Shown here: positions 4,745 through 48,471 of the stretch, in pieces
Layout: every line of letters begins with the position of its first letter
How positions within the stretch are numbered: position 1 is the stretch's first letter
Source: the human T2T-CHM13v2.0 reference genome, Homo sapiens
Length of the DNA: 64,000 nt
Assembly: GCF_009914755.1 (NCBI RefSeq)
Contig: NC_060927.1
Reading direction: 5' to 3' (one strand)
Notes under the pieces: model-generated
Database searches by the model: none
The model's input: the letters and a program-made list of their open reading frames with translations, nothing else
What the model was told of the DNA's origin: nothing
Translations under genes and position numbers: made by a program

Positions 4745-7419
4745 TGTATTAGTTCCTTCTCATGCTGCTATGAAGGAATACCTAAGACTGGGTAATTTAT
4801 AAAGAAAAGAGATTTAATTGACTCACAGTTCTGCATAGCTGGGGAGGCCTCAGGAAACTTACAATCATGGTGGAAAGCACCTCGTCACAGGATGGCAGGA
4901 GAGAAAAATGAGTGCCAGCAGGAGAAATGCCAGATGTTTATAAAACCATCAGATCTTGTGAGAACTCACTCACCATCATGAGAACAGTATAAGGGAAGCT
5001 TTTCCCATGATTCAGTTACCTCCACCTGATCCCTCCCACGACATGTGGAGATTATGGGAACTACAATTCAAGATGAGATTTGAGTGGGGACACAGCCAAA
5101 CCATATCATTCAGCCCCTGGCCCCTTCCAGATCTCATGTATGTCCTCACATTTTAAAACACAATCATGCACTTCCAACAGTCCCTCAAAGTATTAACTCA
5201 TTCCAGCACTAACTCAAAAGTCCAAGTCCGAAGTCTCATCTGAGACAAGGCAAGTCTTTTCCCCCGATGAGCCTGCAACATCAAAATCAAGTTACTTACT
5301 TCCTAGATACAATAGGGGTACAGGCATAGGTAAATACATCCATTCCAAATGGGAGCAATTGGCTAAAACAAAGGAGCTACAGGCCCCATGCAAGCCCAAA
5401 ATCCAATAGAGCATTCATTAAACCTTAAGGTTCCAGAATGATCTCCTTTGACTCCATGTCTCACATCCAGGTCATGCTGATGCAAGAGGTGGGCTCCCAT
5501 GGCCTTGGCCAGCTATGCCCCTGTGGCTTTGCAGGGTACAGCACCCCTCCCAGCTGCTTTCACAGGTTGGTGTTGAGTGTCTGTGGCTTTTCCAGGCACA
5601 CAGTGCAAGCTGTTGGTGGATCCACCATTCTGGAGTCTGGAGGATGGAGGCCCTCTTCTCACAGCTGCAGTAGGCAGTGTCCCCAGTGGGGACGCTGTGT
5701 GGAGTCTTTGACACCCCTATTTCCCTTATGCACTGCCCTGGCAGAGGTTCTCCATGAGGTCTCTGCCCCTGCAGCCTGCAGCACACTTCTACCTAGACAT
5801 CCAAGTATTTTCATACATCCTGTGAAATCTAGGCAGAGGTTCCCAAACCTCAATTCTTCACTTCTGCACACCTGCAAACTTAACACCATGAGGAAGCTGC
5901 CGAGGCTTAGGGCTTGCATCCTCTGAAGCCATGGCCTAGGCTGTATCTTGGTCCCCTTTAGCTATGGCTGAAGCAGCTGGGATGCAGGGCATCAAGTCCT
6001 GAGACTACACACACCTGGGGAGCCCTGGGCCTGGCCCACAACACCATTGTTTCCTCCTTGGTCTCTGGGCTTGTGATGCTAAGGGCTGCTGTGAAGGTCT
6101 CTGACATGCCCCGGAGACATTTTAACCATGGTCTTGGTGATTAACATTTGGTCCCTCATTACTTACGCAAATTTCTCCAGCCAGCTTGAATTTCTCCCCA
6201 GAAAATTGGTTTTTCTTTTCTATCACAAGACCAGGCTGCAAACCTTCCAAAGTTTTATGCTCTGCTTCCTCTTGAATGCTTTACCAGTTAGAAATTTCTT
6301 CCACCAGGTACCCTAAATCATCCCTCTCCAGTTCAAAGTTCAGCAGATCTCTAGGGCAGGGGCAAAATGCCACCAGTCTCTTTGCTAAAGCTTAGCAAGA
6401 ACCACCTTTATTCCAGTTCTCAGTAAGTTCCTCACCTCCATCCGAGACCACCTCAGCCTCTCAGCCTGGACTTCATTTTCCGTATCACTATCAGCATTTT
6501 GGTCAAAGCCATTCAACAAGTCTCTAGGAAGTTCCAAACTTTCCCATATCATCCTGTCTTCTTCTGAGGCCTCTGATATGGTTTGACTGTGTCCCCTTCC
6601 AAATCTCATATTGATTCGTAGTTCCCATAATCCCTAAATGTCATGGGAGGGACCTGGTGGGAGGTAATTGAGTGATGGGGGCAGTTACCCCCGTGCTGCT
6701 CTTCTCATGATAGTGAATTCTCATGAGATCCAATGATCTTATAAGGGGTTTCCCCCTTTTGCTTGGCACTTCTTCTTCCTGCCATCATGTGAAGAAGGAC
6801 GTGTTTGCTTCTCCTTCCACAATGATTATAAGTTTCCTGAGGCCTCCCCAGCCAGGCAGAATTGTGAGTCAATAAATTACCCATTCTTGGGCAGTCCTTT
6901 ATAGCAGCATGAGAATGGACTAATACACCATCCAAACTGTTCCAACCTCTGCCTGTTACTCAGTTCCAAAGTTGCTTCCACATTTTTAAGTATCCTTACA
7001 GCAATGCCCCACTACCCAGTAACAATTGACTGTGTTAATCCGTTTTCATGCTGCTAATAAAGACATACCGAAGACTAGGTACTTTTTAAAGAAAAGAGGT
7101 TTTAATTGACTCACAGTTCCACAGGGATGGAAGGAAGAAATAGGCCTCAGGAAACTTACAATCATGGCAGAAGGGAAAGCAAACATGTCCTTCTTCACAT
7201 GACAGCAGGAAGGAGAAGAATGAGCGAAGAGGGGAAAAGCCCCTCATAAAACCATCAGATCTTGCGAGAACTCACTTACTATCGTGAGAACAGCATGGAA
7301 GGACTACCCTCATGATCTCATCACTTCCCAGGAGGCCTCTCCTGCAATACATGGGGAGTATAATTCAGATTACAATCCAAGATGAGATTTGGGTGGAGAT
7401 ACAGAGCCAGACTATATTA
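4745..7419 (-). mobile_element. Full-length THE1 (ERVL-MaLR) element: LTR 4745-5108, internal region, LTR 7031-7419
   Basis: Two LTRs (tgtattag...ccatatca and tgtgttaa...ctatatta) flank THE1-int sequence; degenerate 5-bp target-site duplication tgccc/tgtcc. Confidence 0.92.
6574..6927 (+). mobile_element. THE1C-like solo LTR nested in the THE1 internal region in opposite orientation
   Basis: tgatatggtttgactgtgtcccc...gagaatggactaataca; flanked by gcctc/ccatc (degenerate 5-bp TSD); THE1-int resumes on both sides. Confidence 0.9.
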
Positions 7420-19617: not shown

Positions 19618-20339
19618 CTCAATCAAAAAGAATGCCCTTATAAGGAGCAGAAATCATCTTTAGTCATGTTGTTGAATTCTATGTGTATAATTTCAAAACT
19701 AGCTCTGCTTGTAGAGAGTAGATAATTTTATATAATTTGCTAAGTTACTCTACCTCTTTTACAGTGGAGGGAAAATAGTCTTAGATGTTGAAGAGAAACA
19801 CTTGTGGAGTCAAATACAGAAGGAAGAATATAAGATTTAAGATTGGCATAGGTTATGATTTTGAGGGAAGAGACAGTTGTAGCTAAGATGATTTATTTGC
19901 ATTATCAGTGAAGTGACTGTTGAAATGCAGTAACAATTCAGATGGCAAGTGGTAACAAGGCAGGTAAGAGTATATTCACCAGTATTTTTTGTGCTTCTTT
20001 TGTCAAGTGAGTGATTTCAAAGCCTTTCATATCATTATTCATGGATATGCAGTTTGTGCATCGGGAATTAGCCAGAGAGGCAGTTTTTATTTTCACAGTT
20101 GACTTTCAGAATTATGAAAACCTAACTTCTTTAACTCCATTTGCTTGTACATTGTTTTGACACATTCTGTAATGAAATTTTATGACAAGGTAAAGCATTT
20201 ATACTGGAGAGTACCTGATTCAGTTAAATTAGATAAAAGCATCTGAATTGGACACACTTCCCATCCCCTTGCAGATGAATCTCACTTTTACAGATTGTAG
20301 AAAAGAGCAAGAGGGGTGCCATGTTACAACACAGAGAGA

Positions 20340-24899: not shown

Positions 24900-25725
24900 A
24901 AAACTCTATTATCTAGCAAAGAACCAGAGATGTAGAAAAACGATTGCAATCTAACATGATAATGTTGGATGTAAAATATCATTGCATACATAGAAACAAT
25001 AATATGGAATACAGCTGATCTCTCATGAGAATTAATGGAGTATGGACAACAATGGAATGACATCTGAAAAATGTTGAAAGACTGTGAAAACTGAACTCAG
25101 AATTTTATTTCCAAGGAAAATAACTCTCAAAATTAAGGCTTAAATAAATACATTTTTAGATAAATAACAACTGGCAAAGTTCATCACTGCAGACCTGTTT
25201 TACAAGAAAAGCTAAAAGAAGTTCTTGATGCTATGGGAAATGACATCCGTAGAAACTCTGATCTGCAGAGAGGAATGAAGAGCACTGGAAATTATCAATT
25301 TTGAGATAAATAGAAGAGATAAACTTCTTTTATTTTCTTATTTTTTTAGGTACACTAATGTCTGTTTAAAATAATAACAAAATATTGTGAGTTTTCCCAT
25401 ATATAGATGTAAAATATGACAACATTTGCACAAAGGATGAGAAAAAATAAAATTATGTCATGAGGTTCTTATATTTTATATACAGTACTAAAATTTGTTA
25501 TCAACTAGCTTAGCAAAAATGGTAATGTGTGTATTTATGTGTGAGAGAGAGGGAAACAGAGAGACAGAGACAGAAAGAGACAGATTAAGAGAGAAAAAGG
25601 ATGTTGTAAAATTTTAACAGTTGGTAAATTTAGGACAAACATTTGTAGGCATGTATTGCATTAGTCTTTTAACCTTAGTATGGTTTTGAAATTTTTAATA
25701 GTAAAAGGGTTAGAAGTAAAAGGAA
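24900..25725 (+). mobile_element. Old L1M (ME-like) fragments: ORF1 end, inter-ORF region and 3' end
   Basis: aactcagaattttatttcc...acaagaaaagctaaaagaagttctt (L1M ORF1 end); ttttgaaatttttaatagtaaaa (L1ME-type 3' end). Confidence 0.65.
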
Positions 25726-25745
25726 AAGCAGATCCTAAAGGATTA

Positions 25746-26050
<305 letters not shown>

Positions 26051-26264
26051 AAAAAACAAGGGAAGATACCAGGAAAAGCATATAGAAAGCTTCATGAAGA
26101 CAACACTTTTTTCCCAACACCTAATATAGTGATGGAATTTAGTGTAAAATATTTTTTGGTGAATTATTAATTATTAATGAACAGGAACTTGACAGGTGAA
26201 AGAGTAGAAAAAGGAAAAGGAAAATAATTCGGAATATTAGCCTATCATCATAACTACATTAACA

Positions 26265-26800
26265 TATAGTATAGTGATCAAGAGCAGGAATTCTGGAGCT
26301 AGATTAATAGTTTGGGTTTGAATCTTGACTCCACTACTTACTAGCTGTGTAATCTTGGACATATAACTTAACCTCTCTATGCCTTAGTTTCAAATGAATT
26401 TAATTACAATGCTTATTAATTACATTAATATTAATTATAATATTAATGTATGATACATATATTAATAAGGATATATGAGAATATGTATATGTATAATAGG
26501 ATATATGTGTGAATATATATATGTATGTATAAATTTAGGGAAAGCAGTTACAGATATTCATTACATTAGTCTTTCAACTTCTCAATAGTTTTGAAATTTT
26601 TAATAATAAAAAGGTTAGAAGTAAAAGAAATAGTTCCTGAAGCACTAATTATTAGACAAATATTCAGAGTAAAAAAAGAAATAAGAATGTAAGGTTATAT
26701 ATATGGATATACATTATATTAATACACATAGTAAGTACTATATATTAAGTACTATATATTAAGACACATAGTAAGTACTATATAAATGTTAGCTTCTATT
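26265..26800 (+). mobile_element. MIR split in two parts (26265-26395 and about 26720-26800)
   Basis: gggtttgaatcttgactccactacttactagctgtgtaatcttgg...ttaacctctctatgcctt, later cacatagtaagtactatataaatgttagc. Confidence 0.7.
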
Positions 26801-27408
26801 ATATTGTCTTATAAAACATTAAAAAATATCTTAAAGAAAACTGCATATTCAATTCAATGAGGTGTCAAGTATTTTATAAATAAGTACAGTATATAATCCT
26901 TAAATTAAAAAGAAATAAAATTGTATTTTTTGAAATAAGTAGAAGAGATACACTTTTTATTTTCTTATTTTTTGAAAGACTACTATCTGTTTTAAAATAA
27001 TAATATGTTATGGGTTTTTCCATATGTAGATGTAAAATATGACAGCATTTGCACAAATAATGAGAAAATAAATGAAATTAAGTTGTGAGGTTCTTATATA
27101 AGTGCTAAAATGTATTATCAAAGAGCTTAACAAAAATGATAATGTGTGTGTTTCTGTGAGAGAGGGAAACAGAGAGACAGAGAGAAAGAGACAGATTAAG
27201 GGAGAAAGAGGATGTATGTATAATTTATATGTATAAATTTATCATTCACTCTTTGTCAATTATTTGATCATATCTTTTGAAATATATTAAGTAAATATTC
27301 TCAAAACACATAACCAAACCTTGACTTCTGAAAGAGAATTTTTCTTGGTGTGGAAGAATAATTCAAGCGTGATTTAAACATTTTAAGACATTGATTTGAA
27401 TTCCTCAG

Positions 27409-27912
27409 TGTAGTGTCATAGCCTGCTTCGAAAATACGTCTCATTGATTCCTGCCTCCTGATATTCTTGTTCTTGTGTGTGTAGATACTTCTTCTGGTAT
27501 ACAAAGTTCCTACTTACTTGCTTCTAGTGAATAGAATATGTTAAAAGTGATGAAATGTTACTTCTAAGATTACATTATTAAAAAAAAAAACAACATGACA
27601 TTTCTGTTTCCCTTGTACTCTCTCCCTCTCTGGCTCTTCTCACCTGCTGTGAGGAAGACAGCCACCATGTTGTAACCTTCCCTATGGAGAGGCCTATAAA
27701 GCAGAAAACTAAAGGCAGTCTCTGACCAATAGCCGGCAAGAAACGAGACCCTCAGCTCCACAGCATGCAAGGAACTGAATCTTGCCAACAATCACATGAG
27801 TGAGCCAGAAGATCCAGCTAAGCAGCACCAAAATTTGTTATCCATAGAAACTATGATGTAATAAATATAATTGAAGTTTTGGGTTAATTTGTTACACAGC
27901 ATTACTAATGCA
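27409..27912 (+). mobile_element. MLT1 (F/G-like) MaLR solo LTR
   Basis: gattcctgcctcctgatattc...gccaccatgttgt...aaggaactgaatcttgccaacaatcacatgagtgagc...tttgttacacagc. Confidence 0.8.
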
Positions 27913-28376
27913 CTTGGATTTGTAAGACTGCTTTTTAAAGCAAATTTAAATAGCTAGATAACTTAATGACATTTCTGAGATCTTAAAAAAGGGTCATTAC
28001 AACAGACTTGATGCCAACTTTCCCACAATACAAATAATTTGCAGGCTAATTATTTATGATCTCACTAATACAAATTTTCAGAGGAAGTTTATTTTCCTTA
28101 TTTTCTTCTGTTTCCCTCATTTAGAAGAGATAATCTAATAACTAAAGTAACTTGAAAATTATGGACAGGTTTTTTTTTTAAGATTCTAAAATTATCTGCC
28201 TCAAAGGAAAAACTGAAATCATATCAAGATAAGGTATTTATTTCAAATATTTTTAAGTAAACTGTCAACCTGTTCCAAGGTTAAGTGTGGTTTTACAAAA
28301 GTTGATTCTCTTTCCTTTCACTTTTGACCCAAATATCAGTTTCATCTAACCACAGTTTTTAAATAGATTATGGAAC

Positions 28377-28379
<3 letters not shown>

Positions 28380-28451
<72 letters not shown>

Positions 28452-28460
28452 TGTGTGTGT
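28380..28460. repeat. Compound microsatellite (CT)n(GT)n
   Basis: Uninterrupted ct run followed directly by gt run. Confidence 0.98.
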
Positions 28461-29933
28461 ATCTCATAATTTTGGTTGGTTTTAGGTTATAGATAGTTCC
28501 ACTGTAGTGAAGTAAACCAGTGTGTTATCAACAAATATGTATTACATGATCTAAAGGTAAAATTATGTCTTGTTAACACTCTTTTTAAAATGCTAAACTT
28601 AAATGGGTCCTTGCTATGGGCAAGGTGTGATTTGGCAGGACCTTAAATCTAAATGACTTGTTAATGTTGGAAATTATGACCAATACACAAAGGGTTGGAA
28701 CCTACAGTCTGTTCAAATGACTGTTCTGGTGTTTGATATAAAAGGAATGTAATAGTAAGTTCTTCAAATATTCTCAATGAAACTAAAGTGTTTTTCTCAG
28801 ACTGTGATGCTCTTGGTGATAAAAAATAACATCAACACAAGAAAACTTACTTGACATACTTAATTTCAAATGCTTTTGCTTCTCTGTATTTCTGAATTTG
28901 TTGTTTAATAAACCTCATAAATATTTCACTGTTTCACTGAGAGAAGTTACCTTAAATAACTCCTTCAGATAAAGAAAAAAATTAAAAACAAAGTCACAAA
29001 GGAATATAGTTATATGATACTATGTTGAAAATTGTCAGGTTTGGCAAATCCTGATCATTTTTCTTCCGTTGCTGAGAGACTGAAATAAATTTGATTAATC
29101 TACCTCTCTACCTCCAAAGCTCCATTAAATTAATCAGAATACAAATGGGAATTTAGTAAAACTAGAATATATTTGAGGGGGTATATTTTTGCTGATTATA
29201 AAAGCAGTCTGAACTGTAATAACTTTTATTTCTACCAACTATTTAGAAATAGTTGATCAATAATTGCAAATTCAATACCCAGAATTGATTTCCTTCCTTG
29301 TTAAATTAGAGAAGGTATTTACAGTGGCATTTGTTTACAAAATGCAGCTTAAACATCTGCTTCCAAAGTCGGTGTTTTCTTTCTTCTACCGTTACTGAGT
29401 CAGATGAAGTCTTAACTGCTGTCAACGTAGGCAGATCTGAGTACATTTCTATGAAAATACTTGTCCTCAGGTCTCCTCTACTCTGATGGGCACAGGATGT
29501 TCCACTGGAGGAATTTCATCGGACAAAGTTTTCACAAATCTGTGCAGATCAGTTCTATTTAGTACTTTAAGTCCCCTGTTATACCCTGTACCAGGGCCCC
29601 CTGATGACTAAACTTAGATATCCTTTAAAAATGGAATGATCAGATTCAACTATTTGAAGAAAATACTTTGGGGCACCTGGGGAAAATTCAAAAGGACGTA
29701 AATATTAAAGAAAGTAAAATGTGGAATGTTCAAGTACAGAGAATTGTCTTGAGAATCAGGACACAGAAGTTTTCTAGTATCTGTTCTACGAATAGCATAC
29801 CCTAGTTCTTTAAAGTAATATAGGATCTCCTCTCAACAGGCTGGCCTGAGGCAAACTGGGAAGTAGGTGAGGCTGGAGTGTTTGTTTCCCACTTGTATCA
29901 TTCCTTCTAGCAATAAATATGCATTAGCATTTT

Positions 29934-30403
29934 AAGTGGGTGTCCTTGCTTTGACTACTGGAAATTGGCATTTTAGGCACTGTGAAGATAGCTAAGAGAA
30001 AGTGTTTCTGAGTAGCAGTAGCCTTTTAGAGCTCCAAGATCAGCATACAGCTGGCAGCCCGCTCTGCCTAAGTACTCTGGGGCTCTACTATCTTGAGGAC
30101 ACATTAGGTAGCACAGCAAAAATGTTGTATAGAATACATAGGTATCCATAGGAAAGCTTCAGGTCTGTCCCACTCCCTTCCAGCCTGCAACCGTGAGCCC
30201 AGTATGCTAGATATTCTGACCTCTATGCATCTCCTTTCTAAATCAATAGTAGAGCCCCAGAATGCTTAGGCAGAGGGGGCAGCCAGCCATATGCTGAAGT
30301 TGCAGCTTTCAAAGGCTACTGCTACTCAGAAACACTTTCTCTTAGCTATCTTCACAGTGCCTAAAATGCCAATTTCCAGTAGTTAAGGCAAGGACACCCA
30401 CTT
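29934..30403. repeat. Long inverted repeat: 158-bp arms (29934-30091 / 30246-30403) with 154-nt spacer
   Basis: Manual ungapped alignment of the left arm with the reverse complement of the right arm gives 13 differences in 158 bp; 29954-30026 is a 73-bp perfect match. Confidence 0.97.
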
Positions 30404-31679
30404 TCTAAACCGCGCATGTACTTGACCTGAACCTAAGTCTATCTTATACTCAGAATTAGCTAAATATTATTTGCTTAACAGAAATATTTGCCTTAGACTG
30501 ACTATTTGCAGGCTTTCAAAATTTGTTTTAAATATGGATTTAGAGAATGTTGATGACCTCAAAAAGAAGTTATATTTGATATAAAAATGATTAGAGTCAC
30601 CATTTCGCTTTAATCAATCTCAATAATCTTCTGCTTCATTTTTTAAACTTTTAATGAGATTTATCTAAGATAATAGGTGAGGTCAAATAGATTTTTTATT
30701 TTTAATATAAAAATGTGAACAGAAAGCATTTTATTGAATAGCAAGCGTATTCTACATTAATGTGTGTGCCGATGCTGTGGGGTAATTCTAGAGATTTATT
30801 TAACACCTGTAACATGCCACGTGAGAGAAATGAGTTGGTGGGAGAAAAGAGTTATTGTTAAACATAGTAGTATTTAATTCTGTGCCAATCTGTGTGGTGG
30901 ACTTAAGGAGGATAACAGAGTTTCAAAGGCAGGGGTCATATTAGAAGACAGGAATGTTGCACAGTCTTTGGAGAGATATAAAGAATGGGGTTTAATGTTT
31001 CTTGAAGATCCAGGAGGAGCCCCATGGTTTAGAAGCCAGAATAGACATGACTTTTCATAAATCGTAGATTAAGTAATACTTTATCTATAGTAGAACCTCA
31101 TGGGGAAGTGAGGTAAAGTGCATAAGAGGAATTTAACTGCCTTGGATATGAGGCTAAATAATAAAAAGTTTTTCCTGTAGTTTGTGAATCTGGGTGTGGT
31201 ATTACCAAAGTAGTGTTTTGGAACTATAACTCTGATAGCTGTGCCCAGGCCTCATGAGACATGAGAGAGGAGGCCAGATGAAGGAGACCAATTAGAAGGA
31301 TATTGCAGTGACGGGAAAGATGATCATAGTGGGAATGATAAGGAAAGGAATGTCCTAGGGACAATTTTCAAAAGTAATTAATGAGACTTCCTATTTATAT
31401 AAACCTATGTTATCAAAACATATATTTTTCAAAGCAAATGAACACTTTGAGGCTGGATGAAGGAAAAACAGCACACTTGGTTGTAGACAGCTGGGCAGGG
31501 AAGTGTGAAACTGCCCACAGAGGGTACAGTATAAGGGGTTCATTGATTGTTCAGCTGTTTGGGCAACTTCTGCCCTGAATGTAAAAAGAAGATGAGGAAA
31601 TCATCTCAGGGTGTCAGATAAGTACCAGGAAAATAATTCAGTCTTCAATTTTGATATTATTTCTGGAAAATCAGTAAAG

Positions 31680-31930
31680 TGGGTATTAGCATAGGCTCGG
31701 AGTCAGAAAGACCAGGTTTTGAGTTCTATTTAGCTGTAAACCTGACTACTTGTGTGAACTGGGTTGAGTGACTTAAGCATCACTAAATCTCAGTAACCAC
31801 ATCTGTAAAATAGAAACAGTAAATGACCTTTATAGTTTGATTGTAAGGATTAAATGAGATAGCTAATGTACAATACTGAGGAGAGAGTTTGACATGTAGT
31901 AATTAGCCAGTACATAAATATTAGCTGTCG
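31680..31930 (+). mobile_element. MIR
   Basis: ggagtcagaaagaccaggttttgag...catctgtaaaatagaaacagtaa...gtaaggattaaatgagat. Confidence 0.75.
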
Positions 31931-32199
31931 CTGTTCTTATGGTGACGATGTTATAAAATGGCCAAAAGAACATAGGATGATGGCTTTGGAAGGAGTTAGA
32001 AGCAACATTGCAAGTCTGATATTTTTCTGCAGCTCTGGAGAAAACTAAGGCTATGAAAGGCTAAATTTAAGTGAAACCAGACAGAAGATTCCTACCTCAC
32101 ATTTTTCTATTAAAATGAGAATAAAAGCCTGAAACTATGCCTTCTACTTGGTTATTATTTGCAAGATAGTTCATAACATATACCTCACTATCTCTGACT

Positions 32200-48039: not shown

Positions 48040-48471
48040 TATATATATGTGTGTGTGTGTGTGTGTGTGCGTGTGTGTGTATATTTATGTATGTGCACAT
48101 ATATATTTATGTATGTGCATACATATATATATTTATGTATGTGCATACATATATATATTTATGTATGTGCATACATATATATATTTATGTATGTGCATAC
48201 ATATATATATTTATGTATGTGCATACATATATATATTTATGTATGTGCATACATATATATATATTTATGTATGTGCATACATATATATATTTATGTATGT
48301 GCATAAATATATATTTATGTATGTGCATAAATATATATATATTTATGTATGTGCATAAATATATATATATTTATGTATGTGCATAAATATATATATATTT
48401 ATGTATGTGCATAAATATATATATATTTATGTATGTGCATAAATATATATATATATTTATGTATGTGCATA
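48040..48471. repeat. (TG)n tract followed by a ~26-bp VNTR of about 15 copies
   Basis: Unit (at)n-ttatgtatgtgcata(c/a) counted about 15 times. Confidence 0.97.

What the first reader, a model, noticed from the sequence alone, without database searches (positions are those of the whole stretch)
29934..30403. Long ungapped hairpin in apparently unique sequence: 158-bp arms with a 73-bp perfect core
Seen: 29934-30091 pairs without gaps with 30246-30403 (i+j=60337). The distal 93 bp differ at only 2 positions, both G-U wobbles in a + strand RNA; 29954-30026 is perfect; the loop-proximal 65 bp carry 11 differences; weaker remnants of complementarity continue into the loop. The arms match no Alu, L1, LTR or MITE I recognise and show no clear TSD or transposon termini. 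Established: duplexes this long are substrates for ADAR, Dicer and PKR and can extrude DNA hairpins. Inference: the identity gradient (decayed near the loop, near-perfect distally, no indels) suggests an old inverted duplication whose distal duplex is being maintained by selection on dsRNA or by arm-to-arm gene conversion. It is a candidate non-Alu structured RNA element (editing-inducer, endo-siRNA/hpRNA source or splicing regulator).
Basis: partly seen in the sequence, partly recalled or inferred. Interest (0 to 1): 0.8.

Follow-up and report, generated by a model that had tools for sequence, protein, structure and literature searches.

The report
Single-copy 158-bp hairpin in NLGN1 intron
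A real, one-of-a-kind inverted duplication inside an intron of the neuroligin-1 gene would fold into a very long RNA hairpin, but it looks like a by-product of DNA copying errors and nothing yet shows that it has a function.

Summary
The arms are 29934-30091 and 30246-30403: 158 nt, ungapped, 145 of 158 complementary, with a 154-nt spacer and a 73-bp perfect core. Both RNA strands and the DNA fold about 21-24 SD better than shuffles.

It is single-copy in the T2T genome, as is the 4.25 kb around it. The same tool found thousands of candidates for a control repeat. There is no Rfam match in the element and no target-site duplication around the whole element.

The 13 differences are unevenly placed (P about 0.002). 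A proximal-to-distal gradient, a perfect 73-bp block and a diverged 49-bp patch all fit similarly well.

A 9-bp direct repeat brackets the right arm only (P about 0.01 per test). This hints that the right arm is an inserted inverted copy.

Best reading: a locus-specific template-switch inverted duplication, later unevenly homogenised or mutated, carried passively in NLGN1 pre-mRNA. No strand bias or compensation points to selection. Age, conservation, editing and small RNAs could not be tested.

The parts
29934..30091 (+). Left arm of the inverted repeat (158 nt). Under the insertion model this is the source copy.
30092..30245 (+). Spacer or loop, 154 nt, with no excess self-complementarity.
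   Evidence: 14 of 77 pairs in register; z +1.2
30246..30403 (+). Right arm, the reverse complement of the left arm at 145 of 158 positions. Under the insertion model this is the inserted inverted copy.
29954..30026 (+). Left half of the 73-bp perfect core (arm positions 21-93).
30311..30383 (+). Right half of the 73-bp perfect core.
30027..30075 (+). Left half of the diverged patch: arm positions 94-142, 11 differences in 49 bp (5 transitions, 6 transversions).
30262..30310 (+). Right half of the diverged patch.
30234..30242 (+). First copy of the 9-bp direct repeat CTTTCTAAA. It ends 3 nt before the right arm.
30401..30409 (+). Second copy of the 9-bp direct repeat. It overlaps the last 3 nt of the right arm. 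The two copies enclose exactly 158 nt (30243-30400).

Best explanation
This is a locus-specific inverted duplication, not a transposon. A 155-158-nt stretch of unique intronic DNA (the left arm) was copied in reverse-complement orientation about 150 bp downstream. The likely cause is a replication or repair template switch (a templated inverted insertion, or a four-point template-switch mutation whose return point lay upstream of the departure point). That would leave a 9-bp direct repeat around the new right arm. The arms then diverged unevenly. Either an old repeat, about 15% diverged, was re-homogenised over a 73-bp block by arm-to-arm template switching or gene conversion. Or a young repeat, about 2% diverged, acquired a 49-bp heavily mutated patch. 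The element lies on the sense strand of an NLGN1 intron, so it is transcribed passively. It should fold into a duplex of about 158 bp that nuclear ADARs would edit, and it is removed with the intron. Shown: the structure, its uniqueness, the uneven differences, and the flanking direct repeat. Inferred: the mechanism of origin, the homogenisation, the transcription, the editing, and the absence of a selected function.
For: The arms are an ungapped reverse-complement copy, 145 of 158. Arms, loop and the surrounding 4.25 kb are single-copy in the genome. The same tool returned 4571 first-look candidates for a control repeat. It also found 78-82% identical hits of 60-87 bp for another part of the 4.25-kb query. 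No target-site duplication flanks the whole element: the longest shared flank word is 4 nt, which is the mode of the null. A 9-bp perfect direct repeat brackets only the right arm and encloses 158 nt. At 20,000 random places in this window with the same geometry, P(>=9) = 0.0095, with 4 such tests made. Complementarity stops abruptly at both ends of the arms. Template switching is documented to create whole hairpins in one event in primate genomes, to create inverted plus direct repeats, and to homogenise arms (PMC5453318 passages; PMC10710096 abstract and passages; PMC8794818 abstract; PMC8604942 passages). The differences are non-uniform (P=0.0025 and 0.0018), as a second local event would produce. 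There is no strand asymmetry in folding or in G.U against C.A differences, as expected without selection on RNA.
Against: The 9-bp repeat is only suggestive. It is about 0.04 after correction for 4 tests, the sequence is AT-rich, and a 3-nt filler (30243-30245) has to be assumed. Published template-switch events are mostly tens of nucleotides. The miRNA study I read selected stems of 30-55 bases, so a 158-nt copy would be unusually long. Neither way of explaining the uneven differences is comfortable. Homologous gene conversion between 158-bp arms that are about 85% identical should be inefficient (recalled knowledge). And 11 differences in 49 bp is far more than polymerase error. No outgroup sequence was available, so the polarity (which arm is derived) and the age are unproven. 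An ancient low-copy transposon family below about 75% identity cannot be excluded without Dfam.
Confidence: 0.55

Rival explanations
1. It is a relic of an ancient or very low-copy palindromic non-autonomous DNA transposon (MITE-like, with long terminal inverted repeats). Its relatives are now too diverged to find by BLAST-type search, and its arms were later partly homogenised.
For: The architecture is MITE-like: 158-bp terminal inverted repeats around a 154-bp core, 470 bp in all, with sharp ends. G+C is 0.43-0.48 across the element. It is 0.25-0.34 just downstream and 0.37-0.41 upstream. The genome search cannot see families below roughly 75% pairwise identity. The hub's mask carries no family names, so old families are not excluded.
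Against: No other copy was found with the whole element, an arm or the loop, even at E<=10. A sequence-only model of the arms found nothing else in the 64-kb window: 46 matches at E<=10, of which only the two arms are significant and the next best is 9 bits at E 0.065. There is no target-site duplication around the element. TA, TTAA and 8-bp duplications read by eye do not fit. A family old enough to be invisible should have arms 25-30% diverged, not 8%, so homogenisation must be invoked as well. The 9-bp direct repeat brackets one arm, not the element.
Confidence: 0.2
2. It is a selected structured-RNA element in NLGN1 pre-mRNA. The long duplex would be maintained because it recruits ADAR, yields small RNAs, or controls splicing of sequence in its loop.
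For: There is a 73-bp perfect duplex and the differences are non-uniform (P about 0.002). Both distal differences are G.U on the sense strand. It lies on the sense strand of an intron of a neuronal gene (hub annotation). A splice-acceptor-like and donor-like pair encloses 9 nt at 30184-30192 near the loop centre (read, not scored).
Against: The antisense RNA folds equally well. Of 7 transition differences, 4 are G.U and 3 are C.A on the sense strand. Two of 2 distal G.U differences has P=0.25 by chance. Nine of the 13 differences are unpaired mismatches in + strand RNA, with no compensation possible to see in one genome. There is no Rfam family. Long hairpin dsRNA expressed in mouse somatic cells was reported as poorly processed to siRNA and only slightly edited (PMC3245926 and PMC3903663; only the start of each abstract seen, in the listing). 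Intronic dsRNAs are described as edited in the nucleus and removed by splicing (10.1101/2022.08.29.505707, passages). Full-text searches for NLGN1 with inverted repeat, hairpin or dsRNA found no report of the element.
Confidence: 0.08
3. It is an assembly or sequencing artefact, such as a chimeric palindromic read.
For: None from the sequence. Palindromic chimeras are a known long-read artefact (recalled).
Against: The arms differ at 13 positions and are separated by a 154-nt unique spacer embedded in continuous unique sequence. Artefactual fold-back reads give perfect palindromes without diverged arms (recalled).
Confidence: 0.02

Closest known systems
Template-switch mutations that create inverted repeats or hairpins (four-point model; Loytynoja and Goldman 2017; Monttinen et al. 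2022, 2023)
   Same: A reverse-complement copy of adjacent unique sequence produces a near-perfect hairpin in one step. Such events are often intronic and on the sense strand. The model also yields flanking direct repeats and later arm homogenisation.
   Different: The copied tract here is about 155-158 nt with a 154-nt spacer. The events in the papers I read are mostly tens of nucleotides, and the miRNA study selected stems of 30-55 bases. The ancestral state is not known here, so membership is unproven.
Inverted Alu (or other repeat) pairs that form intronic dsRNA edited by ADAR
   Same: A long intramolecular duplex in pre-mRNA with a short loop. The expected fate is nuclear A-to-I editing and removal with the intron. 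The window has an ordinary example at 6745-6845 / 7142-7242.
   Different: The arms here are not interspersed repeats. They are single-copy. They are also much better paired, with a 73-bp perfect run, than the 80% pair at 6745/7142.
Palindromic MITEs such as MADE1 (source of the mir-548 family) and other MER-type DNA transposon fossils (recalled)
   Same: A short element made of long terminal inverted repeats and a small core, which folds into a long hairpin when transcribed.
   Different: There is no family (no other copies found), no target-site duplication and no Rfam miRNA match.
Hairpin RNA (hpRNA) or endo-siRNA loci of Drosophila and mouse oocytes (recalled)
   Same: A long inverted duplication of unique sequence that gives a long perfect duplex.
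   Different: There is no known target gene: the arms match nothing else in the genome. No small-RNA evidence exists. The somatic neuronal host gene is a setting where long dsRNA is poorly diced (starts of abstracts in the listing).

Membership tests
Non-autonomous DNA transposon / MITE | Belongs to a multi-copy family in the genome | tested here: not met
   The whole element, one arm and the loop each hit only themselves or each other at E<=10. A control repeat gave 4571 candidates. The tool did find 78-82% hits elsewhere. Families below about 75% identity were not testable.
Non-autonomous DNA transposon / MITE | Target-site duplication directly flanking the terminal inverted repeats | tested here: not met
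   The longest shared word within +/-15 nt of the two outer ends is 4 nt, the mode of the null distribution.
Non-autonomous DNA transposon / MITE | Match to a curated consensus (Dfam or Repbase) | not testable with these tools
   No repeat library is available. The hub's mask list does not include the arms but carries no family names.
Template-switch-generated inverted repeat | One arm is an exact reverse-complement copy of nearby sequence on the same molecule | tested here: met
   145 of 158 ungapped, 154 nt apart.
Template-switch-generated inverted repeat | Ancestral or outgroup sequence lacks the copy, so the event is explained by one switch | not testable with these tools
   No other mammalian genome is held. 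The supplement of PMC7954356 had no row beginning with my approximate, recalled hg38/hg19 coordinates. This is a weak negative.
Template-switch-generated inverted repeat | Junction signature (microhomology, or a short direct duplication at the return point) | tested here: inconclusive
   A 9-bp direct repeat brackets the right arm, P=0.0095 per test with 4 tests. The 3-nt overlap (CTT) could be microhomology. A 3-nt filler has to be assumed.
Known structured RNA / miRNA family | Match to an Rfam covariance model | tested here: not met
   Only 2 matches at E<=10 in 29000-31400. Both lie outside the element and far below the gathering score (16.8 against 70; 16.7 against 80).
Selected RNA duplex (editing inducer, hpRNA source or splicing element) | Sense-strand-specific pairing or compensatory change | tested here: not met
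   The - strand MFE is -319.9 against -313.5 for the + strand. Transition differences are 4 G.U to 3 C.A on the sense strand. Covariation across species was not testable.
Selected RNA duplex (editing inducer, hpRNA source or splicing element) | A-to-I clusters, 21-23-nt small RNAs or duplex-capture reads at the site | not testable with these tools
   No expression or editing data are held. Literature searches found no report.

The most novel reading that the evidence does not exclude
The hairpin is an ancient inverted duplication shared across mammals, and its 73-bp perfect duplex is actively maintained because the NLGN1 pre-mRNA needs it. It might act as a non-repeat ADAR-recruiting or ADAR-sequestering element, or as a stem that presents or hides the splice-site-like pair around 30184-30192 in its loop. 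That would make it a rare selected long dsRNA in a human synaptic gene.
Probability: 0.07. Interest if true: 0.7.

Novelty: new member of a known kind. Interest (0 to 1): 0.3.

Why it matters
Long, nearly perfect duplexes made from unique rather than repeat sequence are uncommon in human genes. This one is a clean candidate for a large single-step template-switch insertion. It could show how far that mutational process reaches beyond the tens of nucleotides usually reported, and how the arms are later homogenised. If it proved conserved and edited, it would be a non-Alu dsRNA element in a gene linked to synapse formation. If it is lineage-specific and silent, as I expect, it is simply a well-preserved mutational footprint.

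Tried and rejected
- **Rfam scan at E<=10.** Nothing in the element.
- **Whole-genome search with a sequence-only covariance model of the arms.** The tool does not take models for this genome. The model found nothing else in the window.
- **Error-prone-polymerase signature in the diverged part.** Rejected as unsupported. Adjacent or near-adjacent differences are not in excess (P 0.54 and 0.38), and 6 transversions of 11 is not significant (P 0.12).
- **APOBEC-like pattern.** Looked at by eye output. The contexts are mixed, so I dropped it.
- **Flanking repeats around the left arm, the whole element and the loop.** Only 4-5 nt, at chance level.
- **L1-endonuclease/TPRT origin of the right arm.** There is no poly(A) and the 9-mer does not start A-rich (read). 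Rejected.
- **Extension of pairing into the loop with a 2-nt bulge.** This gives only 3 more pairs (read), which is chance level.
- **Literature.** NLGN1 + inverted repeat + intron gave 6 papers, 5 listed, none on this element. NLGN1 / hairpin / dsRNA gave none on it.
- **Supplements.** Those of PMC8052449 and PMC10691357 have no NLGN1 entry in the files held. The supplement of PMC7954356 has no row at my approximate, recalled coordinates. The full catalogues of those studies may sit in files I could not see.
- **Tandem repeats in 29000-31400.** Two trivial rows, unrelated to the hairpin.

Full report
**Observation**

The sequence and an independent repeat search show one inverted repeat with arms 29934-30091 and 30246-30403. 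The arms are 158 nt, ungapped and 92% complementary, with 154 nt between them. One search lists 13 differences, at arm positions 17, 20, 94, 96, 101, 105, 106, 115, 116, 123, 128, 140 and 142.
- 2 differences in the distal 93 bp;
- 11 differences in the proximal 65 bp;
- a perfect core at 29954-30026.

The two distal differences are U.G and G.U on the + strand.

The structure is far beyond chance:

| Molecule folded | MFE (kcal/mol) | z-score | Shuffles folding as well |
|---|---|---|---|
| + strand RNA | -313.5 | -23.7 | 0 of 100 |
| - strand RNA | -319.9 | -22.8 | 0 of 100 |
| + strand DNA | -179 | -21.0 | 0 of 100 |

It is the best of the 31 inverted pairs found in the 64-kb window within 3 kb (25 shown). 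Many of the others shown fall in stretches the hub lists as masked repeats.

One sub-claim fails. In the arms' register only 14 of 77 loop positions pair, and only 13 of 54 positions pair outside the arms. The loop alone folds no better than shuffles (z +1.2; 188 of 200 shuffles at least as good). The duplex therefore has sharp inner and outer ends.

**Is it a repeat family?**

The own-genome DNA search returned only the locus itself and the arm-to-arm match. This held for the whole 470 nt, for one arm at E<=10 and for the loop at E<=10.

A 4,251-nt query around the element (27900-32150) is also unique, apart from two short hits of 78% and 82% identity to window 31771-31863. Those hits show that the tool can see old, short repeats.

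As a positive control, the masked stretch 25680-26064 gave 4571 first-look candidates, and the 40 that were scored were 85-91% identical.

A sequence-only covariance model of the two arms found nothing else in the window with filters off. It gave 46 matches at E<=10, of which only the two arms are significant; the next best is 9 bits at E 0.065.

Rfam gave two weak matches at E<=10 in 29000-31400. Both lie outside the element and far below the gathering score.

No target-site duplication flanks the whole element. The longest shared word is 4 nt, which is the mode of the null.

So the arms are not a young or middle-aged transposon. A family below about 75% identity can only be excluded with Dfam, which I do not have. 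The hub's mask does not list the arms, but it carries no family names.

**Anatomy that bears on origin**

A perfect 9-bp direct repeat, CTTTCTAAA, lies at 30234-30242 and at 30401-30409. It brackets the right arm only and encloses exactly 158 nt (30243-30400).

At 20,000 random places in this window with the same geometry, a shared word of 9 nt or more occurred with frequency 0.0095. I made four such tests, so the result is suggestive, not decisive.

It fits a model in which the right arm is an inserted inverted copy of 29937-30091, plus a 3-nt filler. The return of synthesis would lie 9 nt upstream of the departure point. The last three paired bases (CTT/AAG) could be microhomology.

The four-point template-switch model describes such outcomes, including inverted repeats and direct repeats (PMC5453318, passages). 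Template switches are reported to have created over 6,000 hairpins in the primate lineage, with the resulting miRNAs mostly intronic and on the sense strand (PMC10710096, abstract and passages). They are also reported to create and maintain stems (PMC8794818, abstract). Those events are mostly much shorter than 158 nt; the miRNA study selected stems of 30-55 bases.

**The uneven differences**

Thirteen randomly placed differences give a perfect run of 73 or more with P=0.0025. The post-hoc comparison of the outer 93 bp with the inner 65 bp gives Fisher P=0.0018.

The shape of the unevenness is not determined:

| Model | logL | Source |
|---|---|---|
| Uniform | -44.9 | |
| Diverged patch at positions 94-142 (11 of 49), rest 2 of 109 | -36.1 | |
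| Perfect block at positions 21-93, rest 13 of 85 | -36.4 | my arithmetic, same formula |

The outermost 20 bp (2 differences) do not differ from the inner 65 bp (11 differences) (Fisher P=0.72).

Clustering of the inner differences is not significant (P 0.54 and 0.38). The share of transversions, 6 of 11, is not significant either (P 0.12). There is therefore no statistical support for an error-prone-polymerase signature.

Two histories remain.
- **(a) Old repeat with a recent perfect block.** The repeat is about 15% diverged (JC 0.17). That corresponds to roughly 85-170 My at recalled rates of 1.0-0.5e-9 per site per year. The 73-bp block would have been re-homogenised recently, with a 95% upper bound of 20-41 My.
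- **(b) Young repeat with a mutated patch.** The repeat is about 2% diverged, roughly 10-20 My with very wide limits, and one heavily altered 49-bp patch.

Arm homogenisation by template switching or conversion is well documented (PMC8604942, passages). One alignment with outgroup genomes would decide between (a) and (b).

**Selection on RNA?**

I find no sign of it in this one sequence.
- Sense and antisense RNAs fold equally well.
- Of the 7 transition differences, 4 are G.U and 3 are C.A on the sense strand.
- The 6 transversions are plain mismatches.
- Two of 2 distal G.U differences has P=0.25 by chance.

**Likely behaviour**

NLGN1 is on the + strand and the window lies inside one of its introns (hub annotation). 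The hairpin is therefore transcribed with the host gene; this is an inference.

A duplex of this length is a substrate for promiscuous ADAR editing (recalled). Intronic dsRNAs are described as edited by nuclear ADAR, removed by splicing, and hence not sensed by MDA5 (10.1101/2022.08.29.505707, passages).

Long hairpins expressed in mouse somatic cells were reported as poorly diced and little edited (PMC3245926 and PMC3903663; I saw only the start of each abstract, in the listing). An endo-siRNA role in brain is therefore unlikely.

At the DNA level, a 154-bp spacer should make hairpin or cruciform formation rare. A review states that inverted Alus with a 52-bp spacer no longer stalled forks in eukaryotic cells, and that longer spacers lower the risk (PMC7999016, passages). 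Persistence of the repeat therefore needs no special explanation.

Standard inverted-repeat catalogues would miss it. invertiaDB keeps only spacers of 8 bp or less and perfect arms (PMC12019632, passages).

**Literature on this locus**

Full-text searches for NLGN1 with 'inverted repeat' and 'intron' gave 6 papers, 5 listed. A search for NLGN1 with 'hairpin' and 'dsRNA' was also run. Neither found a report of this element.

The held supplements of two catalogues of long-range RNA structures contain no NLGN1 entry. A great-ape template-switch supplement has no row at my approximate, recalled coordinates. Larger data files of these studies were not visible to me.

**Verdict**

The element is a real, single-copy inverted duplication of 2 x 158 bp. 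It is most likely a mutational footprint of template switching with later local homogenisation or mutation, carried passively in NLGN1 pre-mRNA (confidence about 0.55).

| Alternative | Confidence |
|---|---|
| Ancient transposon relic | about 0.2 |
| Selected dsRNA element | about 0.08 |
| Assembly artefact | about 0.02 |

It is a new member of a known kind. Interest is modest until conservation, editing or small-RNA data say otherwise.

Noticed in passing
window 30184-30192 (context 30165-30198): Near the centre of the loop, a pyrimidine-rich tract ending in AG (30182-30183) is followed 9 nt later by GTGAGC (30193-30198). The pair resembles an acceptor and donor around a 9-nt microexon. It was read by eye and not scored. 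Such pairs are common by chance.
   Followed up: no
window 48048-48471: A (TG)16 run is followed by about 14.7 copies of a 26-27-bp AT-rich unit that is itself quasi-palindromic. This gives many overlapping inverted repeats of 70-88% with spacers of 0-46 nt. The region lies in a masked stretch and could be a non-B-DNA or fragile motif.
   Followed up: partly
window 6745-6845 and 7142-7242: A 101-nt inverted pair, 80% complementary and 296 nt apart, lies inside two masked repeats. It looks like an ordinary inverted pair of interspersed repeats in the same intron.
   Followed up: no
window 31771-31863: This is the only part of the 4.25 kb around the hairpin with relatives elsewhere. There are two hits of 78% and 82% identity, on contigs C1 and C5. 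It is probably an old, unmasked interspersed repeat fragment.
   Followed up: no
window 26065-32193: About 6 kb around the hairpin contains no masked stretch in the hub's list, and 27900-32150 is essentially unique in the genome. Only 13% of the window is masked, which is low for an AT-rich human intron.
   Followed up: partly
window 25680-26064: A high-copy interspersed repeat was used as the positive control. It gave 4571 first-look candidates, and the 40 that were scored were 85-91% identical over about 250-280 nt. It is Alu-like by length and copy number, but I did not name the family with any tool.
   Followed up: partly
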